Below, in pieces: positions 51,611 through 63,773 of a DNA stretch of 64,000 nucleotides. Below the pieces are notes generated by a model. It searched no databases. It saw only the letters and a list, made by a program, of their open reading frames with translations, and had not been told where the DNA came from. The stretch lies in sequence record MK962753.1; one strand, written 5' to 3'. The DNA comes from Shigella phage JK32. Position numbers and translations under genes: made by a program. The first letter of the stretch is position 1; each line of letters begins with the position of its first letter.

Positions 51611-52009
51611 TTAAGCCAGTCGAGTGAGTTTATAAATGGTTTTAAAGCATAGAACTTTGATATCGTCTAAAACGCTCTGCAACGAGCTATCAACATCATT
51701 ATAAATCTCACTAGCCATTTGCGTTAACTCTTGCAAATAGGCAATTTCGCTAATCTCCTTGCGGACGACCAACGTTGGCTGATACCGACCAGTGATCCCA
51801 ATATTGGTTTCTGTGAAATTATCAACCAATTCTTGCATTTCAAGATAGAACTCTTCTAGAGCCTTATGTTTTGAATAAGACCCAGGTCCAGTTACCCCAA
51901 AATGCGCAGAATGCATATAAGTAACGCTCATTAGGCATTCACCAATAAAGCGGTCTACTTTATTAGCTTTTCCTTCCTCGGAAGTCTGCCTAAATTCACT
52001 GAATTTCAT
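51611..52009 (-). CDS. hypothetical protein, possibly ferritin/Dps-like
   Basis: Start set at MKFSEF after GGAG; MHSAHFGVTGPGSYSKHKALEEFYLEMQE loosely resembles Dps ferroxidase region. Confidence 0.3.
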   Translation of the reverse strand: MKFSEFRQTSEEGKANKVDRFIGECLMSVTYMHSAHFGVTGPGSYSKHKALEEFYLEMQELVDNFTETNIGITGRYQPTLVVRKEISEIAYLQELTQMASEIYNDVDSSLQSVLDDIKVLCFKTIYKLTRLA

Positions 52010-52295
52010 TATATCGATTCTCCATTTTATTAAGCACAATAAATTGATTTGCGGCATACTCTCCCATCATGAAACAATGTTTAGCATCCATACATTTACT
52101 ACGTGCGTATGTTTTCATTATGTGGTCATGAAATTTTTGACTTGTCTCCACCGATGGTTGTATTTTGTTTATATACACGATCATAGCACCGTCGAAGTAA
52201 TCAGTAAAGTCACCAACAGGACATTGATCGGCACTTACGCTACCAACTGCCATAACGCATATACCCGCAACGAGTGTTTTACGAATAAATGACAT
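51996..52295 (-). CDS. secreted/periplasmic small protein (N-terminal signal-like segment)
   Basis: 99-aa ORF starting MSFIRKTLVAGICVMAVGSVSA. Confidence 0.4.
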   Translation of the reverse strand: MSFIRKTLVAGICVMAVGSVSADQCPVGDFTDYFDGAMIVYINKIQPSVETSQKFHDHIMKTYARSKCMDAKHCFMMGEYAANQFIVLNKMENRYNEIQ

Positions 52296-52327
52296 AAGTC
52301 ATTCCCCCAGATTAAAAATTTCAAGTA

Positions 52328-52335
52328 TATTTATA
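52328..52335 (-). promoter_or_regulatory. late promoter consensus TATAAATA
   Basis: Exact TATAAATA on minus strand about 33 nt upstream of start at 52295. Confidence 0.4.
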
Positions 52336-52356
52336 ATCTGGGGATATATTTACGCC

Positions 52357-52953
52357 TTAGTGGATAGATCCATCAATAAAATGTTTACGACAAACAGAAA
52401 CATATTTATCCTCTGCACCAACTTCTATTTGAGCACCATCGCGAATAACATTACCATCTTTATCTACGCGAAGGACCATAGTCGCTTTCTTGCCACAATG
52501 ACAAATACCCTTCATTTCGACCAGTTTATCAGCCAATGCCATTAATGCCGCAGATCCTTCAAATAGATTGCCCTGAAAGTCAGTGCGAAGGCCATAACAC
52601 AAAACAGGGATATTGGCATCATCAACCAGTGCACATAAGCCTAAAACATGTTCTTTAGTCATAAATTGGGCTTCATCTACAAATACAGCATCTGGACGCC
52701 AGCGATCCGGTCTACGCTTACCGAGTGATTCACGATAAACCAAGTCGAAAAGATCATCAGATTTAGTGAATGTGATCGCTGGAGCACTTAGACCAATTCG
52801 GGAAACAACTTCACTTTCTGAATCTCGATTATCAATCGCTGGTTTAAGAATTAATACTCGCATATCACGTTCGGTATAGTTATAAGCACTTTGTAATAAG
52901 GAAGTAGACTTACCAGCGTTCATAGATGCATAGTAGAAGTATAGTTGTGCCAT
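52357..52953 (-). CDS. tk: thymidine kinase
   Basis: 198-aa ORF; MNAGKST P-loop and C-terminal Cys cluster typical of TK1-type kinases. Confidence 0.85.
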   Translation of the reverse strand: MAQLYFYYASMNAGKSTSLLQSAYNYTERDMRVLILKPAIDNRDSESEVVSRIGLSAPAITFTKSDDLFDLVYRESLGKRRPDRWRPDAVFVDEAQFMTKEHVLGLCALVDDANIPVLCYGLRTDFQGNLFEGSAALMALADKLVEMKGICHCGKKATMVLRVDKDGNVIRDGAQIEVGAEDKYVSVCRKHFIDGSIH

Positions 52954-53246
52954 TAATTAATCTCCAAAAATCCAGAAAGACCTAAACCAACATAAACCCA
53001 GATACAAAGGAAAAAGAAGCAAACACCCATAGCAAAGATAAATCCGCGTAGTGTCTTTGGATAACCTACCCAATATTCCCGACCATCTTCTAACCGGATC
53101 AGTCTATTGCCTTGAGAGTCCATATCAATTACAACATGTTTATTTCTGGATTGTAACAGATATTGCTTGACAATCTCAATACCCGCCATAATAACAATAA
53201 CGAAATTAAAAGTCCACATAACAAGGTTAATGATAGTCTCAAGCAT
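52953..53246 (-). CDS. small membrane protein
   Basis: 97-aa ORF with two hydrophobic segments. Confidence 0.35.
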   Translation of the reverse strand: MLETIINLVMWTFNFVIVIMAGIEIVKQYLLQSRNKHVVIDMDSQGNRLIRLEDGREYWVGYPKTLRGFIFAMGVCFFFLCIWVYVGLGLSGFLEIN

Positions 53247-53481
53247 TTTCTATCACCTCCACCCAATCAGGCGTTTCCTGAAATACTCCTTCGCCTTCGT
53301 GGTGGATGCATCCTTTATTGCTACAATACATCCACCAATCCCACATTCCCCACGGTAAACGCTGCATATCGTCGTTACAGCAAGTGAAGACAATAGGCCA
53401 ACCACATCTACCACAACGGCAGTTTTCCTTCATGTGAGCGGTATTAGGCTTCTTCATAGATGACTCCAATATAATCGACAT
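53239..53481 (-). CDS. Cys-rich small protein
   Basis: 80-aa ORF with CRCGRCGW and CC pairs. Confidence 0.35.
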   Translation of the reverse strand: MSIILESSMKKPNTAHMKENCRCGRCGWPIVFTCCNDDMQRLPWGMWDWWMYCSNKGCIHHEGEGVFQETPDWVEVIENA

Positions 53482-53684
53482 TTACATTTAGGGCAATGCG
53501 GTTCTTTAATATAATACCCGTCTGTCTTTGGAACACTAACAGGAGCGGTTTTTATATTGTATTCAGTGAAACAGCGAAAACAAGTTACGTTTTCTACAGA
53601 CTGACGTTTCACCCAATCACCGGAATATAGATCATTTTTATTTGTCATATTCAACCACCACAATATTGATATCTGGAGTAGCAA
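53454..53684 (-). CDS. zinc-ribbon small protein
   Basis: CFRC...CPKCKC. Confidence 0.35.
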   Translation of the reverse strand: MLLQISILWWLNMTNKNDLYSGDWVKRQSVENVTCFRCFTEYNIKTAPVSVPKTDGYYIKEPHCPKCKCRLYWSHL

Positions 53685-54093
53685 TATTAATGATCTCTTC
53701 TACACATTCCCACTCAAGGCCACCGATACCGCAACCGATTTTAGGAATATAGAAAGGCTGTATAGCACCTTCAAAAACATCATTGATAGTCTCAAATCCT
53801 TTCAGGATAGCACCATATTCAGCATTTGGACCAGGCCGGAATTGGGTATAGAGATTCACCCCGCACCAGTTATAACCATTAACTTGATGCGTCCAGACAC
53901 TAAACCCACCCAGCTTTTCTACCTTACCGCGAGAAGTTTGCTTGTCAATTTCTAACGCTTGCGGGAACTCTTTCGCGATCTTTGCAGCAATACCAGCGCC
54001 CATAGTATGAAAACAATTACAACCATGAATTAAATGACCGTTTCCTTGTTTAAACAGGGCGATGAGATCGCCCTTTACAGTATCAATAATCAT
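53638..54093 (-). CDS. macro-domain-like protein (putative ADP-ribose binding/processing)
   Basis: 151-aa ORF; HGCNCFHTMGAGIAAKI and IPKIGCGIGG segments resemble macro-domain glycine-rich loops; by eye only. Confidence 0.45.
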   Translation of the reverse strand: MIIDTVKGDLIALFKQGNGHLIHGCNCFHTMGAGIAAKIAKEFPQALEIDKQTSRGKVEKLGGFSVWTHQVNGYNWCGVNLYTQFRPGPNAEYGAILKGFETINDVFEGAIQPFYIPKIGCGIGGLEWECVEEIINIATPDINIVVVEYDK

Positions 54094-54108
54094 AATATAA
54101 ACCTCTCA

Positions 54109-54468
54109 TTAGTCACGGGATGACAACCCAGCCATAAAACGGCTTAACAGTGTGTCGCGATAAGCAAAGCACAATTGCTTATCAGGGGCAGTATCACACA
54201 GGTTGCGTTTTGTTTTAGCAAAGCTGGCAATACTAAGATCCCATGCTCGATTTTTTCGTTTTTCGTCTCGACCTTGTTTGTATGCTTCGTCGAGTTCAAG
54301 TGCGATAAAATCGCTACACATGTTATCATTATCACAGAAGGTTTTAATGATCTTTTTGTTGATCTCAAATCCTTTGTATTCGAACTTTGGATAAGGGCGC
54401 TCATTACTAGCAAGCGCACCAGCCGAGAACATCATAGCAATCATAGCAATTATTGTCAACTTTTTCAT
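54109..54468 (-). CDS. secreted small protein
   Basis: 119-aa ORF with signal-like N-terminus MKKLTIIAMIAMMFSAGALA. Confidence 0.4.
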   Translation of the reverse strand: MKKLTIIAMIAMMFSAGALASNERPYPKFEYKGFEINKKIIKTFCDNDNMCSDFIALELDEAYKQGRDEKRKNRAWDLSIASFAKTKRNLCDTAPDKQLCFAYRDTLLSRFMAGLSSRD

Positions 54469-54475
54469 ATATTCC

Positions 54476-55066
54476 TCAATAGCGTTTAGTTTTAAGAATG
54501 CCTTTACTCTTTAGATGGTTAGCCTTTTTTAGTACGTCATCAGCATAACCCAATCCGGCTTTATAGTTCCATCCAGCATTGTAAGAAGCTAGCGCGAGTC
54601 GGATATTACCGTTTCGAACATCCAGCCAGTATGCTAACTCATCCATCGCGTAGAATGCAGAAACCTCGCGATTCATGATAAAGTTGATAGTCTGGCGATC
54701 ACTCATTTTAACACCGCGCTTTGCATTTTTCGCTTTCACCGTTTTAAGGTAATTTTGAAATAATCCATAAGCATGATGATTTTTCTTTGGTGCTAAGTTT
54801 GCACCCGCGCTTGATTCTTGCCATGCGATACCCGCCATGATGTGACCTAAACCCTTTCCGTTATAGCGAATATTCGGATGGTCATGTTTCAACTTACCGC
54901 TTTTCTCGAATTGTTCGCCGTATTGATAGGCGAAATGTAAATTATCTAGTTGGTGTGCTGTAAAGTTGTCTATCGGCGCTTTTTTGATCGGTGCGCTAGT
55001 CGATGCGTGTGTAGCACCAACGGCTAGTGACAGACTCAATACTATCGCTTTTAGAACTTTTAACAT
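54476..55066 (-). CDS. secreted lytic transglycosylase (SLT domain)
   Basis: Signal-like N-terminus; SLT signature motifs IAWQESS, AYGLFQ and SYNAGW. Confidence 0.7.
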   Translation of the reverse strand: MLKVLKAIVLSLSLAVGATHASTSAPIKKAPIDNFTAHQLDNLHFAYQYGEQFEKSGKLKHDHPNIRYNGKGLGHIMAGIAWQESSAGANLAPKKNHHAYGLFQNYLKTVKAKNAKRGVKMSDRQTINFIMNREVSAFYAMDELAYWLDVRNGNIRLALASYNAGWNYKAGLGYADDVLKKANHLKSKGILKTKRY

Positions 55067-55151
55067 TAATTTCTCCTGTTTGGTTTAACTTTCTGATTCC
55101 ATAATATAGCCCTATCACCAGAAAGTCAAGCATTAATTTAACCAATTTCCA

Positions 55152-55574
55152 TTATTGGTCCACTTTCAAAACAACAGCCGACATTTTACCCGCCAGTCGT
55201 TTTGGATTCTCTATAATCATTCGACAGCATAGACCGTGATATGGCTTACCGTCTTCAATTAGGTCTACTGTCATCCCGATCCACATGTTACCGTCAGTAA
55301 TTTCTAATCGATTAGGTCGGTCTTCCATTTTCAGGAAGTCGAAGATCTCCGGCAAACGAGTCTCTACCTTATTGAATAGTTCCATTGTCTTATGTTCATC
55401 AATATGACGGTCGGTTAATCTGTCGATCATATGCGGACTAAAGCGAATGAAAATATACTCACCGTAACCATCATTCAAGCACTTTTCTTTGATCTGCGCA
55501 TTGGTTTTGCGCATTTCGGTTTCGAAGAATCTACGCAGCTTACTACGGCGAACGTGTACATTAATTGTTTCCAT
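55152..55574 (-). CDS. hypothetical protein
   Basis: Start set at METINVHV after AAGGAG; ORF track extends to 55646. Confidence 0.35.
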   Translation of the reverse strand: METINVHVRRSKLRRFFETEMRKTNAQIKEKCLNDGYGEYIFIRFSPHMIDRLTDRHIDEHKTMELFNKVETRLPEIFDFLKMEDRPNRLEITDGNMWIGMTVDLIEDGKPYHGLCCRMIIENPKRLAGKMSAVVLKVDQ

Positions 55575-55575
55575 T

Positions 55576-55914
55576 TTATTCTCCTTTCTTAAACAAATTG
55601 CGAAGCCAGTATACAAACGGGATTTCTTTAAACTTGAACTTGTCAATAGTTAATTCTTTAGTAGCAAGATGAATACCATAAGCATCATGTGTCACGATAT
55701 GCCATTTTCTATAGTCCAAATGTGAACAACCGTCTGAATCTAGGTTAATAATAGTTTCTCGCTCACTAGGATTGTTTTTCCACAATTTTGTAATCGGATC
55801 ACACATAATTCGACCTAGCGTACCATGAATAATCTCACAACGGTAAAGTTTTCCGGCAGTGATATAGGCACACCCGTCATAGTCGGTATAAACAAACACT
55901 TCTTTAACACTCAT
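55576..55914 (-). CDS. hypothetical protein (small YxF-motif paralog)
   Basis: 112-aa ORF. Confidence 0.35.
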   Translation of the reverse strand: MSVKEVFVYTDYDGCAYITAGKLYRCEIIHGTLGRIMCDPITKLWKNNPSERETIINLDSDGCSHLDYRKWHIVTHDAYGIHLATKELTIDKFKFKEIPFVYWLRNLFKKGE

Positions 55915-55940
55915 TTTTAATACTCCTTTGTTGTGTCGAT

Positions 55941-55975
55941 GGGGGTATATTACTACCCCCGATCATGGGTGTCAA
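55941..55975 (-). promoter_or_regulatory. early promoter with stem-loop (GGGGGTA/TACCCCC; minus TTGACA 55975-55970)
   Basis: Direct reading, 17-nt spacer. Confidence 0.45.
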
Positions 55976-56236
55976 CTACTTTTTCAAGAATTTTTTAATT
56001 GCGTTCCAAAGACCTTTATTCTCAGGCTGTTTTGGTTCTTCGATCAGTGTCCACGGACGGTCGTCAAGATATGCACAGCTTTTCAGAGAAATAAAAAGTT
56101 TGTATCCTTTATCATCTTTGATGTAACCGTAGGTAGACATTCTTTCATCTGGCGTAAACTTATACAGTTTATTTGGGGTGATGTAAGATCTACTACTATA
56201 AGGTGTCATTACATATTTCATGGTACTAACTCCCAT
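55976..56236 (-). CDS. hypothetical protein (small paralog)
   Basis: 86-aa ORF; similar to 56218-56412 product (YxFTP...GYI.DD.G). Confidence 0.35.
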   Translation of the reverse strand: MGVSTMKYVMTPYSSRSYITPNKLYKFTPDERMSTYGYIKDDKGYKLFISLKSCAYLDDRPWTLIEEPKQPENKGLWNAIKKFLKK

Positions 56237-56412
56237 TTATCACCGCGAAGATGAGAACATCCACCATCAAGAAGGATCGTAATACGAAACCCCGCATCAT
56301 CTTCAATATACCCGATAGTCGGTGGATGTTCGTCGTCTCGTGCCGGGGTAAAATCATACATCTTACCAGGCGTAATATCTTGTCCTTTATTGCTATTGGT
56401 ATAAACTTGCAT
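56218..56412 (-). CDS. hypothetical protein (small paralog)
   Basis: 64-aa ORF. Confidence 0.35.
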   Translation of the reverse strand: MQVYTNSNKGQDITPGKMYDFTPARDDEHPPTIGYIEDDAGFRITILLDGGCSHLRGDKWELVP

Positions 56413-56433
56413 TTTCTTAATCTCCTATATTAA

Positions 56434-57132
56434 CTAACCACGGGTATAGTGTTCCAGAACAACTGTCAGATGAATATATTCTAATAGATCTTTCCAAAAG
56501 TCAACATCTGGTTCTTCCGGCATACCGTTTTTCTTTGCCTCTTCACGCGCGAGTTTAACACGTTCGTAGAGATCTTTCAATTCTTCCCGCACATTATCAA
56601 ATGTTCTTTCTCCTAACTTACACGCTAAAATAGAAGAACGTCGCGCGAGCGGGAATTGTAGATCACCAGTTTGATAGATTTCAAGTAGCTGATAACCAAC
56701 ACGCAGAGCATGAGAAAGATCTTTCCAGTTACTGAAATATTTTTCAGATTTGACTACCTGCTTTTTGAGATAACCAGACAAACCCCACATACCAACATGA
56801 TAGAATTTATCGCGATGTGTTCGGATGTATTCCCATTCTCTGGAGGATTCAATCAACATGTTACTAGGCGCGTGCACCATATCAATAGCGCCGATATCAC
56901 CTTTACATGCCAGATTGATAAACCGTTTTAGACTGAACATATTAACATCAATATCGTCTTTGGTGTTCTTGATACCTTGACCGCTAGTGCTTTGGTCATA
57001 GTGTTCTTTCATCGATCCTAAGATAATTTCTTTCGCAGTCGGAACAAAGATACCACGATAATCTTTATCTGAATTTTCAGTATCAAGACCGTATAAGTGA
57101 GATCCGAAGACCATTTTAACCATTGTATGCAT
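56434..57132 (-). CDS. putative nucleotidyltransferase (Pol-beta superfamily-like)
   Basis: N-terminal GSHLYGLDTENSDKDYRGIF fits the G[SG]x9-13Dx[DE] nucleotidyltransferase signature. Confidence 0.45.
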   Translation of the reverse strand: MHTMVKMVFGSHLYGLDTENSDKDYRGIFVPTAKEIILGSMKEHYDQSTSGQGIKNTKDDIDVNMFSLKRFINLACKGDIGAIDMVHAPSNMLIESSREWEYIRTHRDKFYHVGMWGLSGYLKKQVVKSEKYFSNWKDLSHALRVGYQLLEIYQTGDLQFPLARRSSILACKLGERTFDNVREELKDLYERVKLAREEAKKNGMPEEPDVDFWKDLLEYIHLTVVLEHYTRG

Positions 57133-57150
57133 AATTAAACCCTCATGTTA

Positions 57151-57744
57151 TTAAACGTATTCAGCAACAACATTATGTTTAAAATTACCGCTCATTTTTG
57201 GATTTGGATTTTTCAATCGACTATGTATTAAATTTTTGTTGTATCCGGTTGCTTTAGACGCTTCGCCAATACTTTGATAAACAACACCATTAACACGAAT
57301 CGGACGAGACTTATTAAACAGTTTATTCAATCCGGCATCATATGCATGGTTTTGGTTTTCTTGTCTCGTTGCGATCTCAAGATTCCAAACACAATTACAA
57401 GATTTTACCCCACTTTTATGATTAATTTCAAGCCCTTCACAATCACCTATAAAGTGTTCAGCGACTAGTCTATGAATATAGCGATATTTCTTAGTTTCCC
57501 CGTCATGCAAGCATACATTATAATAACCATCACCAGCGCGTTTAGGTCGGAGTAGTTTACCTTTAACACGTTTTATAGTAGGGAACTCACCAAATTGATT
57601 TCGCTGGACAAACGAAATCTCGCGGTCTAATGAACGGATTCGACCATAGTTAGACACTTGATAAAAACTTTCATAGCCTTTAATTGGCTTCCATATCTCA
57701 GGGATTTCTACACCATCAATAACAACAAGTTTAAATTCTTCCAT
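57151..57744 (-). CDS. free-standing HNH endonuclease (NUMOD4-like N-terminus)
   Basis: YQVSNYGRIRS segment plus HRLVAEHF...INHKSG...N HNH core. Confidence 0.6.
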   Translation of the reverse strand: MEEFKLVVIDGVEIPEIWKPIKGYESFYQVSNYGRIRSLDREISFVQRNQFGEFPTIKRVKGKLLRPKRAGDGYYNVCLHDGETKKYRYIHRLVAEHFIGDCEGLEINHKSGVKSCNCVWNLEIATRQENQNHAYDAGLNKLFNKSRPIRVNGVVYQSIGEASKATGYNKNLIHSRLKNPNPKMSGNFKHNVVAEYV

Positions 57745-57753
57745 ATTTCACCT

Positions 57754-57789
57754 CATAAAAAAATAAAGCCAACCCTTTCGGATTGGCTT
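57754..57789 (-). terminator. rho-independent terminator (stem AAGCCAA/TTGGCTT plus T-run)
   Basis: Hairpin and T-run on minus strand after GrcA-like gene. Confidence 0.45.
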
Positions 57790-57794
57790 GTCGA

Positions 57795-58208
57795 TTACAT
57801 AGATTCCGTAAAGGTACGGGTGATGATATCAAGTTGTTGTTCGCGTGTCAAGGCGTTGAATCGGGTAGCATAACCACTGATTCTAATAGTCAGTTGTGGG
57901 TATTTTTCAGGATTTTCTAACGCATCAAGAAGAGTTTCCCGACGCAGCACGTTCGCGTTGAGATGATGACCAGCGTTACTATTTACCCCGTTATCAATTG
58001 CTACAGGACGGAAGCTAGTTGTGTGTAGTGCCAGCGAATCGACGTCTTCTGCGGTGATCACATGGTCTTCTGCGAAAGTTTTACTAACAATTACTTTAGC
58101 GCCGATCAGTGCTTTCGGTTCGGATACCAGAATCATAGGCGCGAAATGTCCACCGATAATAGTACCTTTATGCTCACCTTTCATGATTTGAATTGCTTTA
58201 AATTCCAT
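57795..58208 (-). CDS. autonomous glycyl radical cofactor-like protein (GrcA/YfiD-like)
   Basis: C-terminal [12 protein letters not shown]...[33 protein letters not shown] closely resembles E. coli GrcA and the glycyl-radical RVSGY motif. Confidence 0.65.
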
Positions 58209-58343
58209 AATTCACCTCTTATAGATCAGGACGTTCGTCATTAACTTTTCCAACCAAAACCCCATAGAGTTTATCAGGTTGGACTTTACGATTCTTATTG
58301 ATTGTAGCACGGAATCGACGAGCTACGCTATCTTTATTTTTCA

Positions 58344-58835
58344 TTAGTTGATACCTAAGCCAATGAAAATAGGTTGGTCTTCTACATTACCCATTCCAAC
58401 ACTACGTCGATTTAACTCTAAAAACTGCAATACGCTGTCAGTAAATCCGCGCATGGTAGTATCTAGGATAAAGATTGTTTTGTCAAGCCGACGACCTCGC
58501 CATGTAATCGGATTCAGGAAAGTTCGGATCGACGTACAATCTACATTTGAAATATTGACATTTTCACCACGACCGCGATCTCGGATCGTTTTGACATGTT
58601 CCCGCGTTGTCGAAACGATAAAGACACTATAGCCTTTTCGCGTATAATGGTCATATAACTTGATTGTAGCGTCTGTATGCCCTGTTTGACGCCCTAAATT
58701 GATTGAGACGATGGAATCTAGGTCATCAGCAAAATTGCGTCGCTTACGGCGTTCTATGATGCCATCTACGGCAGAAACACATGCAGCATAAATCAAATCT
58801 TTACTTTCTAATTTTACATCAATATTCATTGTCAA
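58344..58835 (-). CDS. hypothetical protein
   Basis: 163-aa ORF. Confidence 0.4.
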   Translation of the reverse strand: MTMNIDVKLESKDLIYAACVSAVDGIIERRKRRNFADDLDSIVSINLGRQTGHTDATIKLYDHYTRKGYSVFIVSTTREHVKTIRDRGRGENVNISNVDCTSIRTFLNPITWRGRRLDKTIFILDTTMRGFTDSVLQFLELNRRSVGMGNVEDQPIFIGLGIN

Positions 58836-58891
58836 GTCTCCAGTGAACGGGGAGAGATCCTTAGATTGTCTCCCCGTTGATGGTTAATATT

Positions 58892-59467
58892 TTATTTTGG
58901 ATCTGGGAAATTCAATAGAGCATATTCTCCATAAAATTTCCTAGCTGCATTATCATAAGCGATTGCAGCTTCGATTTCTGTGTCATATTGTCCAAGAACA
59001 TGTCTTTGTAGGTTGACCATTATACTAGCTCTCCATTTCTTACGCAAATCCTTCCTGTTACACTTACTAACACCCTTATACACACTAGAAAACTTTTTAG
59101 ACTTCTTCTTTCTATTATGTTGATTTTGCGCGTCGGTTGCCTCCCTAAGATTTGGAGGATTGTTATTAGCAGGATTACCGTCAATATGATCAATTAATCT
59201 AACTTGCGTCCCATGTTCTAGAAACCAAACAACCCTATGCACGAATAGATGAACTCTAGGAAGACCGTCATCTCTACTATGCCAAAATCTAAGATGACCA
59301 TCTTTATTTGTTCTGACTTTAACTAAATCGCCGTGTTTATATCTACTCCCTAATGGTCGTCCTTTGATAGCTTTACTATCGACTCTATAATATAAGATAC
59401 CCTCTATATGAGCATATCTAAGTTTTATCTCGTTTTGTAGGGATTCATCCCAATATTTAAAGGTCAT
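58892..59467 (-). CDS. free-standing HNH endonuclease with AP2-type domain (paralog of 28242-28796)
   Basis: HRVVWFLEHGTQ...IDHIDGNPANN and YKGVS...WRASI segments. Confidence 0.65.
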   Translation of the reverse strand: MTFKYWDESLQNEIKLRYAHIEGILYYRVDSKAIKGRPLGSRYKHGDLVKVRTNKDGHLRFWHSRDDGLPRVHLFVHRVVWFLEHGTQVRLIDHIDGNPANNNPPNLREATDAQNQHNRKKKSKKFSSVYKGVSKCNRKDLRKKWRASIMVNLQRHVLGQYDTEIEAAIAYDNAARKFYGEYALLNFPDPK

Positions 59468-59512
59468 TTTATAATCCTCACAAAGCCAGCGATTAAGCTG
59501 GCTTTATTTTAG

Positions 59513-59902
59513 TTATACCGGGTCTGGATATACCTTTTTATCGAGTTCCATATGCGGTCCGTCTTTAAAAGTAACCCAATCAACACCGCAGATAACAGGA
59601 ACACCCAATTCTCGACCAGCTTGTTTAAATGCATCAGCGATCATGCGGTAATATTTCATGTTCCATGTATCCTTATCTTTAGGATACGCTACAACGTCAA
59701 CCGCGAAACCGTGAAGATGACGAGATTTCATAGTCTTAGATTTACCTTCCGCAACATATTTCTTTTGCGTTTCTAGACTACGCACACCTTCCGTAATACC
59801 AAAATCGACCGGAGTCAGTTCTAATGCACGATGAACGACTTTTACTAGGTCTGGATGTACACCAACAAGCCGATCTTTGCTTCTTTGAGATAATTTAAAC
59901 AT
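59513..59902 (-). CDS. endolysin, peptidase M15-type (L-alanyl-D-glutamate peptidase-like)
   Basis: SRHLHGFAVDV and DGPHMEL zinc-binding motifs; 129 aa. Confidence 0.7.
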   Translation of the reverse strand: MFKLSQRSKDRLVGVHPDLVKVVHRALELTPVDFGITEGVRSLETQKKYVAEGKSKTMKSRHLHGFAVDVVAYPKDKDTWNMKYYRMIADAFKQAGRELGVPVICGVDWVTFKDGPHMELDKKVYPDPV

Positions 59903-59930
59903 TATTCACCCCCTTTGTGAGTGATAATAT

Positions 59931-60122
59931 TTAGATTCCGGTGATCCTGCATAGAGTTCTTGTATTAGCACCAATCAGGATCGCATTAACGACAACCATT
60001 CCCCAATCAACCCACTGATTATTATAAATGCTAAACCCGTTTGCAAGACCAAATACAAGCATTCCGGTACACATACTCAGAGCAATAATCAACATCACGG
60101 TAAAACCAAATGCAAATCTCAT
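59931..60122 (-). CDS. small membrane protein (lysis-cluster candidate)
   Basis: 63-aa hydrophobic ORF upstream of endolysin. Confidence 0.4.
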   Translation of the reverse strand: MRFAFGFTVMLIIALSMCTGMLVFGLANGFSIYNNQWVDWGMVVVNAILIGANTRTLCRITGI

Positions 60123-60123
60123 A

Positions 60124-60339
60124 TTATTTTCCTTTTCTCTGTTTACGTTTATAAAAGTAATACATTACCTCATCGCGTCCGGTGATCCAACATGCTAGGG
60201 CAGTAAACAGGTTTACAATTCCCAACACACCTACGGATGCGGCGCTGTCAACAGACATAGGAACAGTAAAGGCCATAGCTAACATAGCAACGCCACAAAT
60301 GACATTAAGCACCATTATAATAAGACCGAAGAAAACCAT
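60124..60339 (-). CDS. small membrane protein (lysis-cluster candidate)
   Basis: Start set at MVFFGLII after GGGAGGA; ORF track extends to 60390. Confidence 0.4.
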   Translation of the reverse strand: MVFFGLIIMVLNVICGVAMLAMAFTVPMSVDSAASVGVLGIVNLFTALACWITGRDEVMYYFYKRKQRKGK

Positions 60340-60341
60340 TG

Positions 60342-60521
60342 TCAATCCTCCCAAATAAGAAAACCAACAATCACGCCAGTGATAAGACATGATGCACCAC
60401 TAATCAGACAACCCGCGCCAAGCGATTCCCACCAGATCAGGGAAGCGACAATAACACCGAATCCCCAGACTACCGCAATCACAACATAGGCAAAGATCGC
60501 CCAAAACATATATTTGTTCAT
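60342..60521 (-). CDS. small membrane protein (lysis-cluster candidate)
   Basis: Start set at MNKYMFW overlapping upstream stop (ATGA); ORF track extends to 60533. Confidence 0.35.
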   Translation of the reverse strand: MNKYMFWAIFAYVVIAVVWGFGVIVASLIWWESLGAGCLISGASCLITGVIVGFLIWED

Positions 60522-60706
60522 AATAAACCCCATTCACCAAACAAATAAGAAAAAAGCCATATCAACAGAAACGAGGCAATTGATCCGGCAAGCAAAATGA
60601 TATTAGAGAATCCGCTGTTTATCCAGTCGATCAAACAGAATACACCAGTATAGAAGCATAATCCCATTACAAAGCATACTATAAGCAACCATAGATAAAA
60701 CGCCAT
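60518..60706 (-). CDS. small membrane protein; its 5' end lies inside the tandem duplication
   Basis: 62-aa hydrophobic ORF. Confidence 0.4.
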   Translation of the reverse strand: MAFYLWLLIVCFVMGLCFYTGVFCLIDWINSGFSNIILLAGSIASFLLIWLFSYLFGEWGLL

Positions 60707-61122
60707 AGAAAGCCCTCTAGTGAGCTAATTTAGTGCGGGTAGTACATTACCCTACCCGCATTGTTAATCATCGCAGAGCGTGTTCTAGAACGATTCCACA
60801 CCAACCGCTAACCACACCCAAACACACAGCAACAAGCAGATTCATTCGGTCTTTTGAGCAAAATGATATTAGAGAATCCGCTGTTTATCCAGTCGATCAA
60901 ACAGAATACACCAGTATAGAAGCATAATCCCATTACAAAGCATACTATAAGCAACCATAGATAAAACGCCATAGAAAGCCCTCTAGTGAGCTAATTTAGT
61001 GCGGGTAGTACATTACCCTACCCGCATTGTTAATCATCGCAGAGCGTGTTCTAGAACGATTCCACACCAACCGCTAACCACACCCAAACACACAGCAACA
61101 AGCAGATTCATTCGGTCTTTTG
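60591..61122. repeat. perfect tandem direct duplication, 2 x 266 bp (60591-60856 and 60857-61122)
   Basis: Identical sequence read twice head-to-tail; also betrayed by identical plus-strand ORF prefixes at 60733 and 60999. Confidence 0.85.
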
Positions 61123-61194
61123 GAATCATCGCAAACAGAACAACACCCACACAGAAAGCCATCACCATTGAAGTTAACATTTGTTCAACCATTA

Positions 61195-61533
61195 TCACAC
61201 CTTTAAAGTCATAGACGCATAAACATTAATGCCAGGCCAGTTAGGATCGCAATTATACTCAACATCCCACAAATAAAGCGGTTTAGATGTATCAGCCAAG
61301 TTTTTAAAATCTTCTACCCACATTTCAATGCTATATGATGGATAAACTAGGCTGTCATATCCTCCGTAACGTTGGCCTACTGGTCGGTCAGTAAAAACTA
61401 CCTCAAGATCCGGTAATTCTTTTTCAAGGATAACCGCCAGCGCATAAATCAGACGGTCTTCCTTGTTACGCTGCCGAAGGACCGTTGTCAGTTGGTTTTT
61501 CTGGTTCACTAGCAAGCACCTCCACATTTTCAC
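61195..61533 (-). CDS. hypothetical protein
   Basis: 112-aa ORF. Confidence 0.35.
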   Translation of the reverse strand: MKMWRCLLVNQKNQLTTVLRQRNKEDRLIYALAVILEKELPDLEVVFTDRPVGQRYGGYDSLVYPSYSIEMWVEDFKNLADTSKPLYLWDVEYNCDPNWPGINVYASMTLKV

Positions 61534-61786
61534 AGAATGAAATTTTCACAGACACAATTTTACCATAAGTGAAGAATGAATATACATTATCGAGATATTC
61601 AACGTCACCTACAATCACATCAAACTGCGGATCAGCAACCGCCGCAACATATTCTACCAGTTCATCAAGAGAATGCAACTTAATTTCATCAATTCGGCTG
61701 TATTTGGTTGCATCTTTAATTTTAAAACCACGTTCTTTCAGTTTGTCAATCAGAATTTCACGCGGAGTTTCAAACAGTTTGCTCAT
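61466..61786 (-). CDS. hypothetical protein
   Basis: 106-aa ORF. Confidence 0.35.
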   Translation of the reverse strand: MSKLFETPREILIDKLKERGFKIKDATKYSRIDEIKLHSLDELVEYVAAVADPQFDVIVGDVEYLDNVYSFFTYGKIVSVKISFCENVEVLASEPEKPTDNGPSAA

Positions 61787-61807
61787 AATATAATCCTCAC
61801 ATTAAAT

Positions 61808-62008
61808 CTAAAATTTGTTAACGACGAATTGCATAATTAGACTAATCACAAACATTGCAAACCAAGTATAAATGCAACAGATAAAAGCTACATACAATTC
61901 AATCTGGTCAGAGAATACACCGGGTAAAAGCATTAGCAAAATAACAACAGTAAAGACGCTAGCGATACCCGCAACAAAACCAATATCATTTTTACTAATC
62001 GTCATCAA
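61808..62008 (-). CDS. small membrane protein
   Basis: 66-aa hydrophobic ORF. Confidence 0.35.
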   Translation of the reverse strand: MMTISKNDIGFVAGIASVFTVVILLMLLPGVFSDQIELYVAFICCIYTWFAMFVISLIMQFVVNKF

Positions 62009-62202
62009 GTCACCGTTTTGTAAAGAAACACAATAAAATCCAAGACAAGAAAGACAGTGTAAATGATCATCGTCAAGACAGTAAACACTGTCAGATTTTC
62101 ATCGTTAGTTAATTCATAGTCGCCCATCCATACAATAACAAGATATAGCATTGAAAGAATGGAAGCACCTACGAAGTTAAAAACATATTCTTGAGCGTCA
62201 TA

Positions 62203-62385
62203 TTAACAACCATCGCGGCTTAAGTCAACAGCAATTGCATACAGCATAATGAATATGCTAGCAGATCCGAGAATCAATGCACCCTCACATTTTGAAACTC
62301 GCTCATCAAAATGTAACATTATCCATCCGAGGATGTTAAAGGCGCAGACCGCGCCTATGTTCGCTAACCAATTAATCTTTTTCAT
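62203..62385 (-). CDS. small membrane protein
   Basis: 60-aa ORF. Confidence 0.3.
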   Translation of the reverse strand: MKKINWLANIGAVCAFNILGWIMLHFDERVSKCEGALILGSASIFIMLYAIAVDLSRDGC

Positions 62386-62393
62386 AATATACC

Positions 62394-62720
62394 TTAGAAA
62401 GAAACAGTTTTCAAGAAATCCAGATTTTTAGTACCGAAAACAGAAAAGTAGTGTTTTCCTTTTTCGGTTTTAGAGAAAGCGATTGTCTTCTCTACATGGT
62501 GACGGAAGCCAGACAGACGATCACCCAAGTCAAGGCGGCAAGCGTAAGTAGTGCCGTTTTCGAAAGTAACCTCGATTTGAGTTTTGTCATATTCGCTTTC
62601 ATAGGCTTTTGCTGCCGCGTCCTTTGCTTTACGCTCGAAGTCTTCGAAGTGGAATACTTCGTTTGCGTTAGCGAATACAGAAGATTCAGAGAAGATAACT
62701 TTAACAGATACTGGTTTCAT
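62394..62720 (-). CDS. hypothetical protein
   Basis: 108-aa ORF after promoter cassette. Confidence 0.4.
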   Translation of the reverse strand: MKPVSVKVIFSESSVFANANEVFHFEDFERKAKDAAAKAYESEYDKTQIEVTFENGTTYACRLDLGDRLSGFRHHVEKTIAFSKTEKGKHYFSVFGTKNLDFLKTVSF

Positions 62721-62762
62721 TTTGATACTCCTTAGTAGTTCGTGTTTCGTTTCGATGGGTGT

Positions 62763-62791
62763 ATTATGCTATACACCCTCTCGCGTGTCAA
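62763..62791 (-). promoter_or_regulatory. early sigma70-like promoter (minus TTGACA 62791-62786, CATAAT 62768-62763)
   Basis: Direct reading, 17-nt spacer. Confidence 0.5.
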
Positions 62792-62799
62792 CAACTTTT

Positions 62800-62988
62800 T
62801 TAGTCTTTTTTCATAATTTCTAGAGCAGTTTCTACCGCACCTTTCCAACCTTCCCACATAATGGACATAGTAATGAAGTTAAAGCACCCGCAGAAATCAA
62901 CCTTTTTAGAGATAAACCATTCTACAAACGCTTCGCTCATACCATGCTCTTTAGCGGATTCGCGTAATTGTTCAATTTGGTCTTCCAT
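62800..62988 (-). CDS. hypothetical protein
   Basis: 62-aa ORF. Confidence 0.35.
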   Translation of the reverse strand: MEDQIEQLRESAKEHGMSEAFVEWFISKKVDFCGCFNFITMSIMWEGWKGAVETALEIMKKD

Positions 62989-62997
62989 AGTATCACC

Positions 62998-63186
62998 TCA
63001 ACATTTAACGTTATTCAAACGATTTTGAAAGTACATATAGCAAGCATAATTTTGCTTTGGTTGTACCGTGTCAGATAGACACGCTTTTACAGCCTCGCGG
63101 TCCGATGGATCTACACCCTCAGCCTTAAGTAATGCTAAAATCTGGTTATAGCGTACTCTTAGTTGTACTAATGGTTTCTCTCCCAT
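62998..63186 (-). CDS. hypothetical protein
   Basis: Start set at MGEKPLV after AAGGGG; ORF track extends to 63249. Confidence 0.35.
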   Translation of the reverse strand: MGEKPLVQLRVRYNQILALLKAEGVDPSDREAVKACLSDTVQPKQNYACYMYFQNRLNNVKC

Positions 63187-63196
63187 ATTACACCCC

Positions 63197-63424: not shown

Positions 63425-63453
63425 TTTGATTCTCCCGTTTCGTTGATGGTTGT

Positions 63454-63482: not shown

Positions 63483-63491
63483 CACTTTTTA

Positions 63492-63752: not shown

Positions 63753-63773
63753 CAACTTTTTTAAAAAAATTTA

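What the first reader, a model, noticed from the sequence alone, without database searches (positions are those of the whole stretch)
53638..55066. Macro-domain-like protein next to two secreted proteins including an SLT lytic transglycosylase
Downstream of tk lie a macro-domain-like ORF (glycine-rich loops HGCNCFHTMGAGIAAK and IPKIGCGIGG), a small protein with a signal-like N-terminus, and a secreted SLT-domain transglycosylase (ES, GLFQ, AYNAG-type motifs). A macro domain could reverse ADP-ribosylation by host toxins, and a periplasmic transglycosylase is separate from the cytoplasmic M15 endolysin. Both could be host-takeover or anti-defence functions.
Basis: partly seen in the sequence, partly recalled or inferred. 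Interest (0 to 1): 0.5.

Follow-up and report, generated by a model that had tools for sequence, protein, structure and literature searches.

The report
T4-type tk.4, vs, vs.1 genes
These three genes are the well-conserved tk.4, vs and vs.1 genes of an RB49-like (T4-type) E. coli phage: a small enzyme that most likely strips a host defence toxin's ADP-ribose marks off phage DNA, next to two exported proteins (a cell-wall-cutting enzyme and a small four-cysteine protein). The block is ordinary and already annotated, with one unresolved oddity.

Summary
Three minus-strand genes fill 53638-55066. The window is a Krischvirus (RB49-like) phage, about 96% identical in DNA to many sequenced E. coli phages.

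- **tk.4 (54093..53638):** a macrodomain, 44% identical to and syntenic with T4 Tk.4. A 2025 preprint showed T4 Tk.4 (renamed AdfM) is needed to resist the DarTG2 defence system. Its nearest relatives are the DarG, TARG1 and SCO6735 class. The catalytic lysine of DarG and TARG1 is a glutamine here, in 59 of 60 relatives. SCO6735 has the same glutamine, needs it for activity, and removes ADP-ribose from thymidine in DNA.
- **vs.1 (55066..54476):** an SLT-family lytic transglycosylase with a signal peptide. Its catalytic Glu aligns with Slt70 Glu478.
- **vs (54468..54109):** the "small signal-like protein" is the ortholog of T4 vs, the "valyl-tRNA synthetase modifier". All relatives keep a signal peptide and four invariant cysteines. 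The gene abuts vs.1 in most relatives. This sits badly with a cytoplasmic target.

Its anti-defence idea for the transglycosylase has no support. These are known genes of known kinds, so interest is low to moderate.

The parts
53638..54093 (-). tk.4 / adfM-like gene: stand-alone macrodomain protein of 151 aa, with no signal peptide.
   Evidence: Pfam Macro scores 28.7 bits against a cut-off of 22. It matches PHROG 335 at 1e-61. It is 44% identical over its full length to T4 Tk.4, E = 9e-45. The AF2 model has pLDDT 96.3, and Foldseek gives TARG1 at 2e-10 and DarG at 9e-9. The only NCBIfam and PADLOC hits are DarG, over the macro part alone.
53842..53844 (-). Codon for Gln84 of Tk.4. This is the position of the catalytic Lys of DarG (K80) and TARG1 (K84), and of the essential Gln85 of SCO6735.
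   Evidence: Shown by the HMMER alignments to 5m3i, 4j5r and 5e3b. The residue is Gln in 59 of 60 family members. The SCO6735 mutagenesis is in PMC9411070. The codon was verified.
54016..54027 (-). Codons for H23-G24-C25-N26 of Tk.4. They correspond to SCO6735 H24-V25-C26-N27, where the Asn holds the Gln rotamer and the backbone of residue 25 holds the proposed catalytic water.
   Evidence: The correspondence comes from the alignment. N26 and G24 are invariant, and H23 is present in 58 of 60 members. The mechanism is described in PMC9411070.
54109..54468 (-). vs gene: ortholog of T4 Vs ('valyl-tRNA synthetase modifier'). The 119-aa precursor is predicted to be exported as a four-helix, four-cysteine protein.
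   Evidence: It matches PHROG 1256 at 3e-33 and is 27% identical to T4 Vs at the same map position. C45, C51, C91 and C100 are invariant. The AF2 model has pLDDT 80.7, with helices at 32-45, 49-72, 76-86 and 97-116. Only Vs orthologs share the fold.
54409..54468 (-). Predicted Sec signal peptide of Vs, residues 1-20: MKKLTIIAMIAMMFSAGALA, with cleavage before SNE.
   Evidence: The first 8 residues carry a net charge of +2, the hydrophobic core has a mean Kyte-Doolittle value of 2.59, and there is an A-L-A site. A hydrophobic N-terminus is present in 63 of 64 IMG/VR orthologs. One ortholog has a lipobox, LSGC. No dedicated predictor was run.
54476..55066 (-). vs.1 gene: exported SLT-domain (GH23) lytic transglycosylase, with a 196-aa precursor.
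   Evidence: Pfam SLT scores 25.7 bits against a cut-off of 21.3, and 6 of 6 orthologs hit SLT. It matches PHROG 600 at 4e-60. It is 53% identical to T4 Vs.1. E84, G101, Q104, Y162 and G165 are invariant in 56 sequences. hhalign puts E84 on Slt70 Glu478 and GLFQ on GLMQ.
55004..55066 (-). Predicted Sec signal peptide of Vs.1, residues 1-21: MLKVLKAIVLSLSLAVGATHA, with cleavage before STS.
   Evidence: The first 8 residues carry a net charge of +2, the hydrophobic core has a mean Kyte-Doolittle value of 2.63, and there is a T-H-A site. A hydrophobic N-terminus is present in 74 of 76 IMG/VR orthologs.
54815..54817 (-). Codon for Glu84 of Vs.1, the predicted catalytic acid of the E-S motif.
   Evidence: The residue is invariant. 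It aligns with Slt70 Glu478 and with the catalytic Glu region of goose-type lysozymes in weak PDB hits. The codon was verified.
55101..55129 (-). Sigma-70-like promoter (TTGACT-17-TATTAT, 10 of 12 matches) in the 85-nt gap between regB and vs.1.
   Evidence: This is a consensus scan only. Its function is not shown.
54431..54459 (-). Near-consensus sigma-70-like promoter (TTGACA-17-TATGAT with an extended -10 TG, 11 of 12 matches) inside the first codons of vs, pointing towards tk.4.
   Evidence: This is a consensus scan only. It could give tk.4 its own early transcript. Not tested.
55152..55574 (-). regB (endoribonuclease), the upstream marker of the conserved block. The likely start is the ATG at 55574, not the TTG at 55646.
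   Evidence: Pfam REGB_T4 scores 163.9 bits over residues 29-161. An AGGAG sits 8 nt upstream of the ATG at 55574.
52357..52953 (-). tk (thymidine kinase), the downstream marker of the conserved block.
   Evidence: Pfam TK scores 176.5 bits.

Best explanation
The region is the conserved early-gene block regB > vs.1 > vs > tk.4 > ... > tk of a T4-type phage of the RB49 group. It holds two functionally separate things.

**(1) Tk.4, an orphan antitoxin-like macrodomain of the AdfM type.** It stays in the cytoplasm. It binds the ADP-ribose that the host toxin DarT2 attaches to thymidines in single-stranded phage DNA, and it hydrolyses the ribose-base bond. Replication can then continue, and the DarTG2 defence fails. 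Its active site is the glutamine variant of the DarG/TARG1 class. Gln84, held in place by Asn26, positions the distal ribose, and a water molecule does the chemistry, as proposed for SCO6735.

**(2) Vs.1 and Vs, made together and both exported by the Sec pathway.** Vs.1 is a small GH23 lytic transglycosylase that cuts glycan strands of the cell wall from the periplasmic side. It is non-essential and separate from the M15 endolysin. Vs is a small four-helix, four-cysteine periplasmic protein whose T4 ortholog carries the label 'valyl-tRNA synthetase modifier'.

**What is shown here:** gene identity, orthology, fold, conserved residues, signal-like N-termini and synteny.
**What is shown by others, on the T4 ortholog only:** the DarTG2 phenotype.
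**What is inferred:** hydrolase activity, export, and the roles of Vs.1 and Vs.
For: **Identity of the block**
- The DNA is 96% identical to 57 Krischvirus-type phages.
- The gene order matches RB49 and T4.

**Tk.4**
- It is 44% identical to T4 Tk.4.
- Knocking out T4 tk.4 sensitises the phage to DarTG2, and tk.4 was the only transposon-screen hit under DarTG2.
- The fold is confident and is closest to TARG1, Poa1p, DarG and SCO6735.
- DarG is the only hit in NCBIfam and PADLOC.
- Gln84, Asn26, His23, Gly120 and Gly122 match SCO6735 Gln85, Asn27, His24, Gly126 and Gly128. In SCO6735, the Q85A, N27S and G128E mutations destroy or reduce removal of ADP-ribose from thymidine in DNA.
- These residues are invariant or nearly so in 60 relatives.
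- A more distant phage macrodomain, PhiKZ gp104, removes DarT2-made ADP-ribose from DNA in vitro.

**Vs.1**
- The Pfam SLT score is above its cut-off in the window protein, and all 6 orthologs scanned match SLT.
- Its catalytic Glu aligns with Slt70 Glu478.
- The three family-1 motifs are invariant.

**Export and coupling**
- Both proteins have signal-like N-termini, conserved in 74 of 76 Vs.1 copies and 63 of 64 Vs copies.
- Four invariant Cys occur in Vs.
- In 55 of the 64 loci that hold both genes, the vs start lies within -8 to +7 nt of the vs.1 stop.

**Dispensability**
- T4 tk.4, vs, vs.1 and regB are all non-essential on E. coli K-12.
Against: - No experiment exists on this phage's proteins. 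The DarTG2 phenotype is for a 44%-identical ortholog and comes from a preprint that did not assay the enzyme.
- The catalytic Lys of DarG and TARG1 is missing.
- The two DNA-positioning lysines of SCO6735 (K34, K89) and its longer mobile loop are not conserved: the window protein has A33 and a loop 5 residues shorter.
- Vs.1 has no significant sequence match to any solved structure, even with a 56-sequence profile. The best match is goose-type lysozyme at E = 0.18.
- The signal peptides rest on a crude hydrophobicity and -3/-1 rule, for which 31% of control ORFs pass the hydrophobicity threshold.
- Export of Vs conflicts with the classical claim that Vs binds cytoplasmic valyl-tRNA synthetase.
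Confidence: 0.72

Rival explanations
1. Tk.4 is what the databases call it: an ADP-ribose-1''-phosphate phosphatase (A1pp or Poa1p type). On this view it clears a small-molecule by-product of RNA repair or 2'-phosphotransfer and does not act on DNA.
For: RB49 and T4 records, and PHROG 335, label it 'phosphatase' or 'A1pp motif'. Yeast Poa1p is among the best fold matches (E = 1.4e-9), and its N-terminal 40 residues align at E = 6e-5.
Against: The label dates from domain matches made in 2003-2006, not from an assay. TM-scores are higher for DarG and TARG1 (0.76-0.80) than for Poa1p (0.69-0.72). The only defence- or annotation-grade HMMs that match are DarG. The T4 ortholog has a specific DarTG2 phenotype.
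Confidence: 0.08
2. Tk.4 erases ADP-ribose from proteins or RNA rather than DNA. The marks could be those written by the phage's own Alt/ModA/ModB-type transferases, or by other host toxins. DarTG2 resistance would then be one of several effects, or a side effect.
For: TARG1 and SCO6735 also de-modify proteins. T4-type phages carry ADP-ribosyltransferases (established knowledge; discussed in PMC9503650). The SCO6735 DNA-positioning lysines are not conserved here.
Against: tk.4 was the single hit under DarTG2 and is dispensable without it. T4, which carries tk.4, is still strongly restricted by the mRNA ADP-ribosyltransferase system CmdTAC. No substrate data exist either way.
Confidence: 0.12
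3. Tk.4 neutralises DarT2 mainly by binding, either to the toxin or to its product, without catalysis. On this view the Lys-to-Gln change marks a non-enzymatic decoy.
For: The catalytic Lys is absent. Catalytically dead SCO6735 Q85A, DarG K80A and TARG1 K84A still inhibit DarT in vitro, and SCO6735 does so most strongly.
Against: Gln84, Asn26 and both glycine loops are invariant or nearly so across 60 diverged relatives, which is the pattern expected of an active site. In SCO6735 the same Gln supports fast turnover and is essential. The protein lacks the C-terminal DarT-binding domain of DarG.
Confidence: 0.08
4. Vs.1 and Vs form a periplasmic enzyme-partner pair. Vs would regulate, inhibit or target the Vs.1 transglycosylase, comparable to T4 Spackle acting on the gp5 lysozyme. 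The 'valyl-tRNA synthetase modifier' label would be a second role or a historical mis-assignment of the ORF.
For: Both proteins carry conserved signal peptides. Vs keeps exactly four Cys in 60 of 64 copies. The genes overlap or abut in 55 of 64 loci, and they stay together in Acinetobacter and Pseudomonas phages that have no tk.4 nearby. Vs is an orphan fold. Mature T4 Vs would be 11.0 kDa.
Against: Straboviridae keep long-range gene order in general, so adjacency is weak evidence. Twelve of 76 vs.1 loci have no detectable vs. Classical T4 genetics links vs to valyl-tRNA synthetase in vivo (my recollection of Marchin 1980, not checked here). The T4 vs knockout defect in minimal medium is at least as easy to read as a translation phenotype. 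No interaction was computed or measured.
Confidence: 0.2

Closest known systems
T4 Tk.4 = AdfM (anti-DarT factor, macrodomain), bioRxiv 10.1101/2025.11.20.689424
   Same: The two are 44% identical over the full length and of similar size (151 vs 155 aa). Both lie between vs and tk, and both have the LYTQF glutamine active-site motif. The window protein works like this one and is a member of this family.
   Different: The Krischvirus copy is closer to the macro genes of Vequintavirus-type phages of 135-140 kb (68-69% identity) than to those of other T4-type genera (44-50%). The window protein itself has no phenotype data.
DarG antitoxin of DarTG2 (M. tuberculosis 5m3i, T. aquaticus 5m31/5m3e; NCBIfam NF048014)
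   Same: It has the same macrodomain class and is the best single-sequence PDB hit (E = 4.8e-8). The conserved Asn and both glycine loops are shared. The proposed substrate, ADP-ribosyl-thymidine in ssDNA, is the same.
   Different: Only model positions 2-141 of 338 match (48 bits against a cut-off of 250). There is no C-terminal DarT-binding domain and no adjacent darT gene. The catalytic Lys is replaced by Gln. The window protein is therefore not a DarG family member.
SCO6735 of Streptomyces coelicolor (5e3b) and Bacteroides BT1257 (2fg1/2afc)
   Same: All have the glutamine-type active site: H-x-C-N, then Gln in place of the Lys, then G-C-G. SCO6735 removes ADP-ribose from thymidine in DNA and protects against DarT. 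With a family profile, BT1257 is the best PDB sequence hit (1.3e-14).
   Different: The SCO6735 residues Lys34 and Lys89 and its five-residue-longer mobile loop are absent. Identity is only about 23-24%. SCO6735 is a cellular, DNA-damage-regulated gene.
PhiKZ gp104 AdfM (Cell Rep 2026, PMC13309987)
   Same: It is a stand-alone phage macrodomain that counteracts DarT2, and it has biochemical proof of ADP-ribose removal from DNA.
   Different: It is only 26% identical to the window protein. It keeps the DarG-type Lys (FPTKD). It is imported into the phage nucleus.
Family-1 lytic transglycosylases / GH23 (E. coli Slt70 catalytic domain; Pfam SLT PF01464)
   Same: The E-S, G-L-x-Q and Y-N-x-G motifs are shared. 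Glu84 aligns with Slt70 Glu478. Both are periplasmic.
   Different: Vs.1 is a distinct, very small (about 175 aa mature) subfamily. All but three of the 120 listed protein-search hits are 159-201 aa long, and every named source is a phage. It has a conserved N-terminal extension of about 50 residues (F35, Q39, N42, A46, Y47, G50). It has no significant hit to any solved structure.
T4 Vs ('valyl-tRNA synthetase modifier'; PHROG 1256, PF26829)
   Same: It is the ortholog by position and by HMM, with the same length, signal-like N-terminus and four Cys.
   Different: Identity is only 27%. The named function was never tested outside T4, and it is hard to reconcile with the predicted export.

Membership tests
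Macro domain (Pfam PF01661) | The profile score reaches the curated gathering cut-off. | tested here: met
   The score is 28.7 bits against a cut-off of 22, covering profile positions 1-118 of 118.
Macro domain (Pfam PF01661) | A three-layer alpha/beta/alpha fold with a central mixed sheet. | tested here: met
   The AF2 model has pLDDT 96.3 and pTM 0.91. TM-scores to TARG1 and DarG are 0.76-0.80, and 198 PDB chains match at E <= 0.001.
Macro domain (Pfam PF01661) | Two glycine-rich loops that bind the ADP-ribose diphosphate. | tested here: met
   G34, G120 and G122 are invariant, and G32 is Gly in 55 of 60 relatives, within the loops M31-G-A-G34 and G120-C-G122.
DarG antitoxin (NCBIfam NF048014, PADLOC DarG) | The full-length equivalog score is at least 250 bits. 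| tested here: not met
   The score is 48.4 bits, and only model positions 2-141 of 338 match. PADLOC DarG matches positions 3-141 of 329.
DarG antitoxin (NCBIfam NF048014, PADLOC DarG) | A C-terminal DarT-binding domain and an adjacent darT toxin gene. | tested here: not met
   The protein ends at residue 151. Its neighbours are vs and a small zinc-binding ORF.
DarG antitoxin (NCBIfam NF048014, PADLOC DarG) | A catalytic lysine (T. aquaticus K80, equivalent to TARG1 K84). | tested here: not met
   The position is Gln84 here and Gln in 59 of 60 relatives.
AdfM / T4 Tk.4 family | Orthology to T4 Tk.4, meaning full-length similarity and the same map position. | tested here: met
   Identity is 44% at E = 9e-45. 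The gene lies between vs and tk in both phages. tk.4 lies within 4 kb of vs.1 in 58 of 76 IMG/VR loci.
AdfM / T4 Tk.4 family | Protects the phage against DarTG2, and removes ADP-ribose from thymidine in ssDNA. | not testable with these tools
   There is genetic evidence for T4 only. Biochemical evidence exists for PhiKZ gp104 and SCO6735 only.
Glutamine-type DarG/TARG1-class hydrolases (SCO6735 type) | Gln at the catalytic-Lys position, supported by the conserved Asn. His and G-C-G are also conserved. | tested here: met
   H23, N26, Q84, G120 and G122 correspond to SCO6735 H24, N27, Q85, G126 and G128. The numbering was checked against eight residues named in the paper.
Glutamine-type DarG/TARG1-class hydrolases (SCO6735 type) | DNA-positioning Lys34 and Lys89 and the extended mobile loop. 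| tested here: not met
   The window protein has A33 at the Lys34 position, and the five-residue GMKTG insertion is absent.
SLT / GH23 family-1 lytic transglycosylase (Pfam PF01464) | The profile score reaches the curated gathering cut-off. | tested here: met
   The score is 25.7 bits against a cut-off of 21.3, at E = 9e-6. All 6 orthologs scanned match SLT at E <= 0.01. Precomputed PF01464 hits are recorded for 36 of the 120 listed relatives.
SLT / GH23 family-1 lytic transglycosylase (Pfam PF01464) | A catalytic Glu in an E-S motif, plus the G-L-x-Q and A/S-Y-N-x-G motifs. | tested here: met
   E84, G101, Q104, Y162 and G165 are invariant, and S86 and N163 are at least 90% conserved, in 56 sequences. 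S85 is invariant in the 6 orthologs but is not listed as conserved among the 56. hhalign places E84 on Slt70 Glu478 and GLFQ on GLMQ.
SLT / GH23 family-1 lytic transglycosylase (Pfam PF01464) | Significant similarity to a solved GH23 structure, or a lysozyme-like fold. | tested here: inconclusive
   The best profile hits are three goose-type lysozymes (which are GH23) at E = 0.18-0.21. hhalign to Slt70 gives E = 0.02 and a low probability.
SLT / GH23 family-1 lytic transglycosylase (Pfam PF01464) | Produces 1,6-anhydro-MurNAc ends, which marks a transglycosylase rather than a hydrolase. | not testable with these tools
   The family shows no invariant Asp after the catalytic Glu. That fits a transglycosylase but proves nothing.
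Sec-exported proteins (Vs.1 and Vs) | A positively charged n-region, a hydrophobic core of 10-15 residues, and small residues at -3 and -1. | tested here: met
   One search shows net charge +2, hydrophobic-core Kyte-Doolittle means of 2.59 and 2.63, and sites ALA|SNE and THA|STS. Conservation is shown. This is a crude rule: SignalP was not available, and 31% of control ORFs pass the hydrophobicity threshold.
Vs family (PHROG 1256 / PF26829) | A profile match and the same map position as T4 vs. | tested here: met
   The PHROG match has E = 3.3e-33 over residues 1-118. PF26829 is precomputed for the closest relatives. Position is shown.
Vs family (PHROG 1256 / PF26829) | Binds and modifies host valyl-tRNA synthetase. 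| not testable with these tools
   This is known only from 1970s work on T4, cited in PMC8076793. It conflicts with the predicted export.

The most novel reading that the evidence does not exclude
Vs is not, or not only, a cytoplasmic modifier of valyl-tRNA synthetase. It would be a Sec-exported, disulfide-bonded periplasmic protein that works with the co-translated Vs.1 transglycosylase as its regulator, inhibitor or targeting subunit. That would make vs.1-vs a two-gene periplasmic cell-wall module of T4-type phages, and it would overturn a 50-year-old gene label. A smaller novel point is that T4-type AdfM proteins use the lysine-free, glutamine-dependent SCO6735 mechanism, whereas PhiKZ AdfM uses the DarG lysine.
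Probability: 0.2. Interest if true: 0.6.

Novelty: already known. Interest (0 to 1): 0.27.

Why it matters
Practical value is modest. The 'phosphatase' and 'hypothetical protein' labels on this gene in most of the listed matching phage records can be replaced by 'anti-DarT2 macrodomain (AdfM-like)'; the family matches 2,731 of 50,697 phage records. That bears on choosing therapeutic phages for hosts that carry DarTG2.

The glutamine active site predicts that T4-type AdfM uses SCO6735-like chemistry. It names the mutants that would test this: Q84A and N26S.

The one point of real curiosity is Vs. A protein listed for decades as a partner of a cytoplasmic enzyme has every sequence mark of an exported, disulfide-bonded protein, and it is tied to an exported cell-wall enzyme of unknown role. 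Settling where it sits would take one simple experiment.

Tried and rejected
- **PDB sequence searches for Vs.1.** I tried a single sequence, a 6-sequence profile and a 56-sequence profile. None gave a significant hit. The first two returned only chance hits (immunoglobulin, porin). I relied on Pfam, the motifs and an hhalign to Slt70 instead.
- **Word-indexed protein search for Vs.** It found only 5 relatives. The exhaustive HMMER search found 15 clusters, so the family is small and confined to phages.
- **Literature on where Vs sits in the cell or what Vs.1 does.** Nothing was found beyond a 2006 domain note. The Miller 2003 T4 review and the Mueller and Marchin papers are not held.
- **DarG membership.** Considered and rejected: the protein has no toxin-binding domain, no adjacent darT gene and no catalytic Lys.
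- **SAR (signal-anchor-release) domain in Vs.1.** Considered and judged less likely than a cleavable signal. The hydrophobic core is only about 12 residues and is followed by a -3/-1 site.
- **RNA genes in the region.** I checked for tRNA genes over 60000-64000 and Rfam families over 52000-62500. None were found.
- **M9-glucose data for vs.1 in the preprint's supplement.** Not pursued. Insertions in vs.1 would be polar on vs, so the result could not separate the two genes.


Full report
**What is in the window.** All real genes between 51 and 58 kb read on the minus strand. The finding's interval holds three ORFs: 54093..53638 (151 aa), 54468..54109 (119 aa) and 55066..54476 (196 aa). Each has a ribosome-binding site.

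Upstream on that strand lies regB (Pfam REGB_T4, 164 bits). Downstream lie two small zinc-binding ORFs, a membrane ORF and tk.

The 3.7 kb around the finding is 95.6-96.7% identical to RB49 and the other listed Krischvirus-type E. coli and Shigella phages (58 matching records, 90-99% identical). In those genomes the three genes are annotated tk.4, vs and vs.1. T4 has the same order: regB, vs.1, vs, tk.4, tk.3-tk.1, tk. The window proteins are 44%, 27% and 53% identical to T4 Tk.4, Vs and Vs.1.

**The macrodomain.** The evidence for the fold and class is consistent:
- Pfam Macro is above its cut-off (28.7 vs 22 bits).
- An AlphaFold model built on 60 relatives is very confident (pLDDT 96.3).
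- Its best PDB matches are TARG1, Poa1p, the DarG macrodomains and SCO6735.
- By sequence, the best solved relative is M. tuberculosis DarG (E = 4.8e-8). With a family profile it is Bacteroides BT1257, followed by DarG and then TARG1.
- DarG is the only family hit in NCBIfam and in PADLOC. Only its first 141 positions match, and the score is far below the equivalog cut-off.

The protein is thus a stand-alone copy of the antitoxin's enzymatic domain. It has no toxin-binding domain and no toxin gene next to it.

**What the ortholog does.** A November 2025 preprint (bioRxiv 10.1101/2025.11.20.689424) screened a T4 transposon library on a host expressing DarTG2. It found tk.4 as the single significant hit. 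A clean knockout became sensitive to DarTG2, and the gene was renamed adfM. The authors infer enzymatic removal of ADP-ribose from DNA but did not assay it.

A 2026 paper shows that a distant phage macrodomain, PhiKZ gp104, removes DarT2-made ADP-ribose from a TNTC oligonucleotide and rescues cells from DarT2.

**The active site.** The alignments show that the catalytic lysine of DarG (K80) and TARG1 (K84) is Gln84 here, and TARG1 Asp125 is Gly124. This is not a dead site. Gln is found in 59 of 60 relatives, alongside invariant G24, N26, C27, G34, T83, P117, G120 and G122.

SCO6735 of Streptomyces has the same arrangement:
- It lacks both TARG1 catalytic residues.
- It cleaves thymidine-linked ADP-ribose from DNA and protects cells from DarT.
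- It is inactivated by Q85A or Q85E, and nearly so by N27S (PMC9411070).

I checked the numbering against eight residues named in that paper. Window H23, N26, Q84, G120 and G122 correspond to SCO6735 H24, N27, Q85, G126 and G128. Not conserved are the two DNA-positioning lysines (A33 in place of K34) and the five-residue-longer mobile loop that carries K89.

PhiKZ gp104, by contrast, keeps the DarG lysine (FPTKD) and is only 26% identical to the window protein. Phage proteins now called AdfM therefore come in a lysine type and a glutamine type. I did not see this point made in the text I read.

**Best mechanism for Tk.4.** It is a cytoplasmic hydrolase that removes DarT2's ADP-ribose from thymidines of phage ssDNA by water-mediated chemistry positioned by Gln84 and Asn26. 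Three rivals are less likely but not excluded:
- an Appr-1''-p phosphatase, as the database label says;
- an eraser of protein or RNA ADP-ribosylation;
- a non-catalytic decoy.

T4 carries tk.4 yet is still restricted by the mRNA-modifying CmdTAC system. That argues against broad RNA activity.

**Distribution of the macro gene.** The family occurs in 2,731 of 50,697 phage records. The Krischvirus copy is 68-69% identical to those of 135-143 kb phages such as AlexBoehm and EduardKellenberger, but only 44-50% identical to those of other T4-type genera. This suggests exchange between phage lineages.

**The transglycosylase.** Vs.1 passes the Pfam SLT cut-off (25.7 vs 21.3 bits), and six of six diverse orthologs match SLT. 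This similarity was noted as marginal as early as 2006 (PMC1524935).

In 56 relatives the residues E84, G101, Q104, Y162 and G165 are invariant. A profile comparison with the E. coli Slt70 catalytic domain places E84 on Slt70 Glu478 and GLFQ on GLMQ. I confirmed that position by counting from the precursor sequence.

Profile searches of the PDB give only non-significant hits. The top three are goose-type lysozymes, which belong to the same GH23 family. The family is small: all but three of the 120 listed hits are 159-201 aa long, and every named source is a phage. Its N-terminal 50 mature residues are conserved but unassigned.

Membership of SLT/GH23 is supported by profile and motifs, while the fold and the reaction product are untested. 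T4 vs.1 is non-essential. Its biological role is unknown, and I found nothing that makes it an anti-defence factor.

**The small protein.** It is the ortholog of T4 Vs (PHROG 1256, E = 3e-33). The exhaustive search of 1.84 billion representatives finds only 15 clusters.

Every full-length member begins with a charged start, a hydrophobic stretch and an AxA-type site. One member has a lipoprotein box. Four cysteines are invariant. The model is a four-helix bundle (pLDDT 80.7 overall, above 85 from residue 41 on) with no informative structural relative.

**Synteny of vs.1, vs and tk.4.** I examined 76 IMG/VR loci that encode a Vs.1 relative.

| Feature | Count |
|---|---|
| vs present downstream on the same strand | 64 of 76 |
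| vs start within -8 to +7 nt of the vs.1 stop | 55 of 64 |
| Vs with a hydrophobic N-terminus | 63 of 64 |
| Vs with exactly four Cys | 60 of 64 |
| Vs.1 with a hydrophobic N-terminus | 74 of 76 |
| tk.4 within 4 kb | 58 of 76 |

The vs.1-vs pair persists without tk.4 nearby in Acinetobacter and Pseudomonas phages. So vs.1 and vs behave as a coupled, exported pair, and tk.4 is a separable neighbour.

**The Vs conflict.** Export is hard to square with the textbook role of Vs as a binder of cytoplasmic valyl-tRNA synthetase. The positive-inside rule puts the C-terminal domain outside the cytoplasm even if the signal is not cleaved.

Mature T4 Vs would be 11.0 kDa. That is close to the roughly 10 kDa I recall for the purified factor, a figure I could not check. 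The preprint reports that a T4 vs knockout is impaired only in minimal glucose medium. I record this as unexplained. The most novel reading still open is a periplasmic Vs.1-Vs module.

**Caveats.**
- Signal peptides were judged with a home-made rule, for which 31% of control ORFs pass the hydrophobicity threshold.
- Conserved gene order is common in this phage family, so adjacency is weak functional evidence.
- The DarTG2 phenotype comes from one preprint on a 44%-identical ortholog.

**Verdict.** The finding is a correct reading of a known, conserved gene block in a known phage genus. The macrodomain hypothesis is supported, and its function can now be named. The transglycosylase is real, but its role is open. 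The small protein is Vs, whose sequence features contradict its label. Novelty is "already known", and interest is low to moderate.

Noticed in passing
window 60591-61122: There is a perfect tandem duplication of a 266-bp unit (60591-60856 and 60857-61122, 100% identical). Each copy contains the palindrome TGCGGGTAGTACATTACCCTACCCGCA. The region also shows the strongest GC and AT skew anomaly in the window. No tRNA or Rfam family was found there. It could be a real recent duplication or an assembly artefact.
   Followed up: partly
window 57151-57744 (-) and 58892-59467 (-): Two HNH homing-endonuclease ORFs are present: NUMOD4+HNH_3 and HNH_3+AP2. They sit between nrdC.11 and vs.6, and between vs.8 and the endolysin. 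RB49 has no gene at either place. These look like mobile insertions that distinguish this phage from RB49.
   Followed up: partly
window 54431-54459 (-): A near-consensus sigma-70 promoter (TTGACA-17-TATGAT with an extended -10 TG, 11 of 12 matches) lies inside the first codons of vs and points at tk.4. It might give the anti-defence gene its own early transcript.
   Followed up: no
window 55067-55086 and 55575-55594 (-): The ribosome-binding sites of vs.1 (AACAGGAGAAATTA-ATG) and of regB itself (AAAGGAGAATAAA-ATG) contain GGAG, the motif cut by the RegB endoribonuclease encoded just upstream. The sites of vs and tk.4 do not. This suggests that vs.1 expression is shut off by RegB.
   Followed up: no
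window 53638-54093; phage records H27, H28, P0006: The Krischvirus macro gene is 68-69% identical to those of 135-143 kb phages (AlexBoehm, EduardKellenberger, and a record labelled Campylobacter phage A147). It is only 44-50% identical to those of other T4-type genera. This suggests lateral exchange of the gene between phage lineages.
   Followed up: no
L008:12518-13006 (PhiKZ gp104) compared with window 53842-53844: The two phage proteins both named AdfM differ at the catalytic position. PhiKZ gp104 has the DarG-type Lys (FPTKD). T4 and RB49-type Tk.4 have the SCO6735-type Gln (LYTQF).
   Followed up: yes
L079:4004-5227 and L082:4004-5234 (IMG/VR): In two distant phage contigs, vs.1 is followed by a longer macrodomain gene (183 and 239 aa) with no vs between them. 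They are directly adjacent in L082. In L079, only a possibly spurious 68-aa ORF overlaps the junction. The vs.1-macro linkage therefore also exists without vs.
   Followed up: no
window 59931-60706 (-): Four consecutive small ORFs (62-88 aa) consist almost entirely of hydrophobic transmembrane-like sequence. They lie on the higher-coordinate side of the M15 endolysin, which is upstream in the direction of transcription. They may be membrane or lysis-related proteins and were not examined.
   Followed up: no
window 53239-53684 (-): Two small ORFs between tk.4 and tk match the recently defined Pfam families Phage_zn_bind_2 (82.6 bits) and Phage_zn_bind (115 bits). They occupy the position of T4 tk.1-tk.3. 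Their function is unknown.
   Followed up: no
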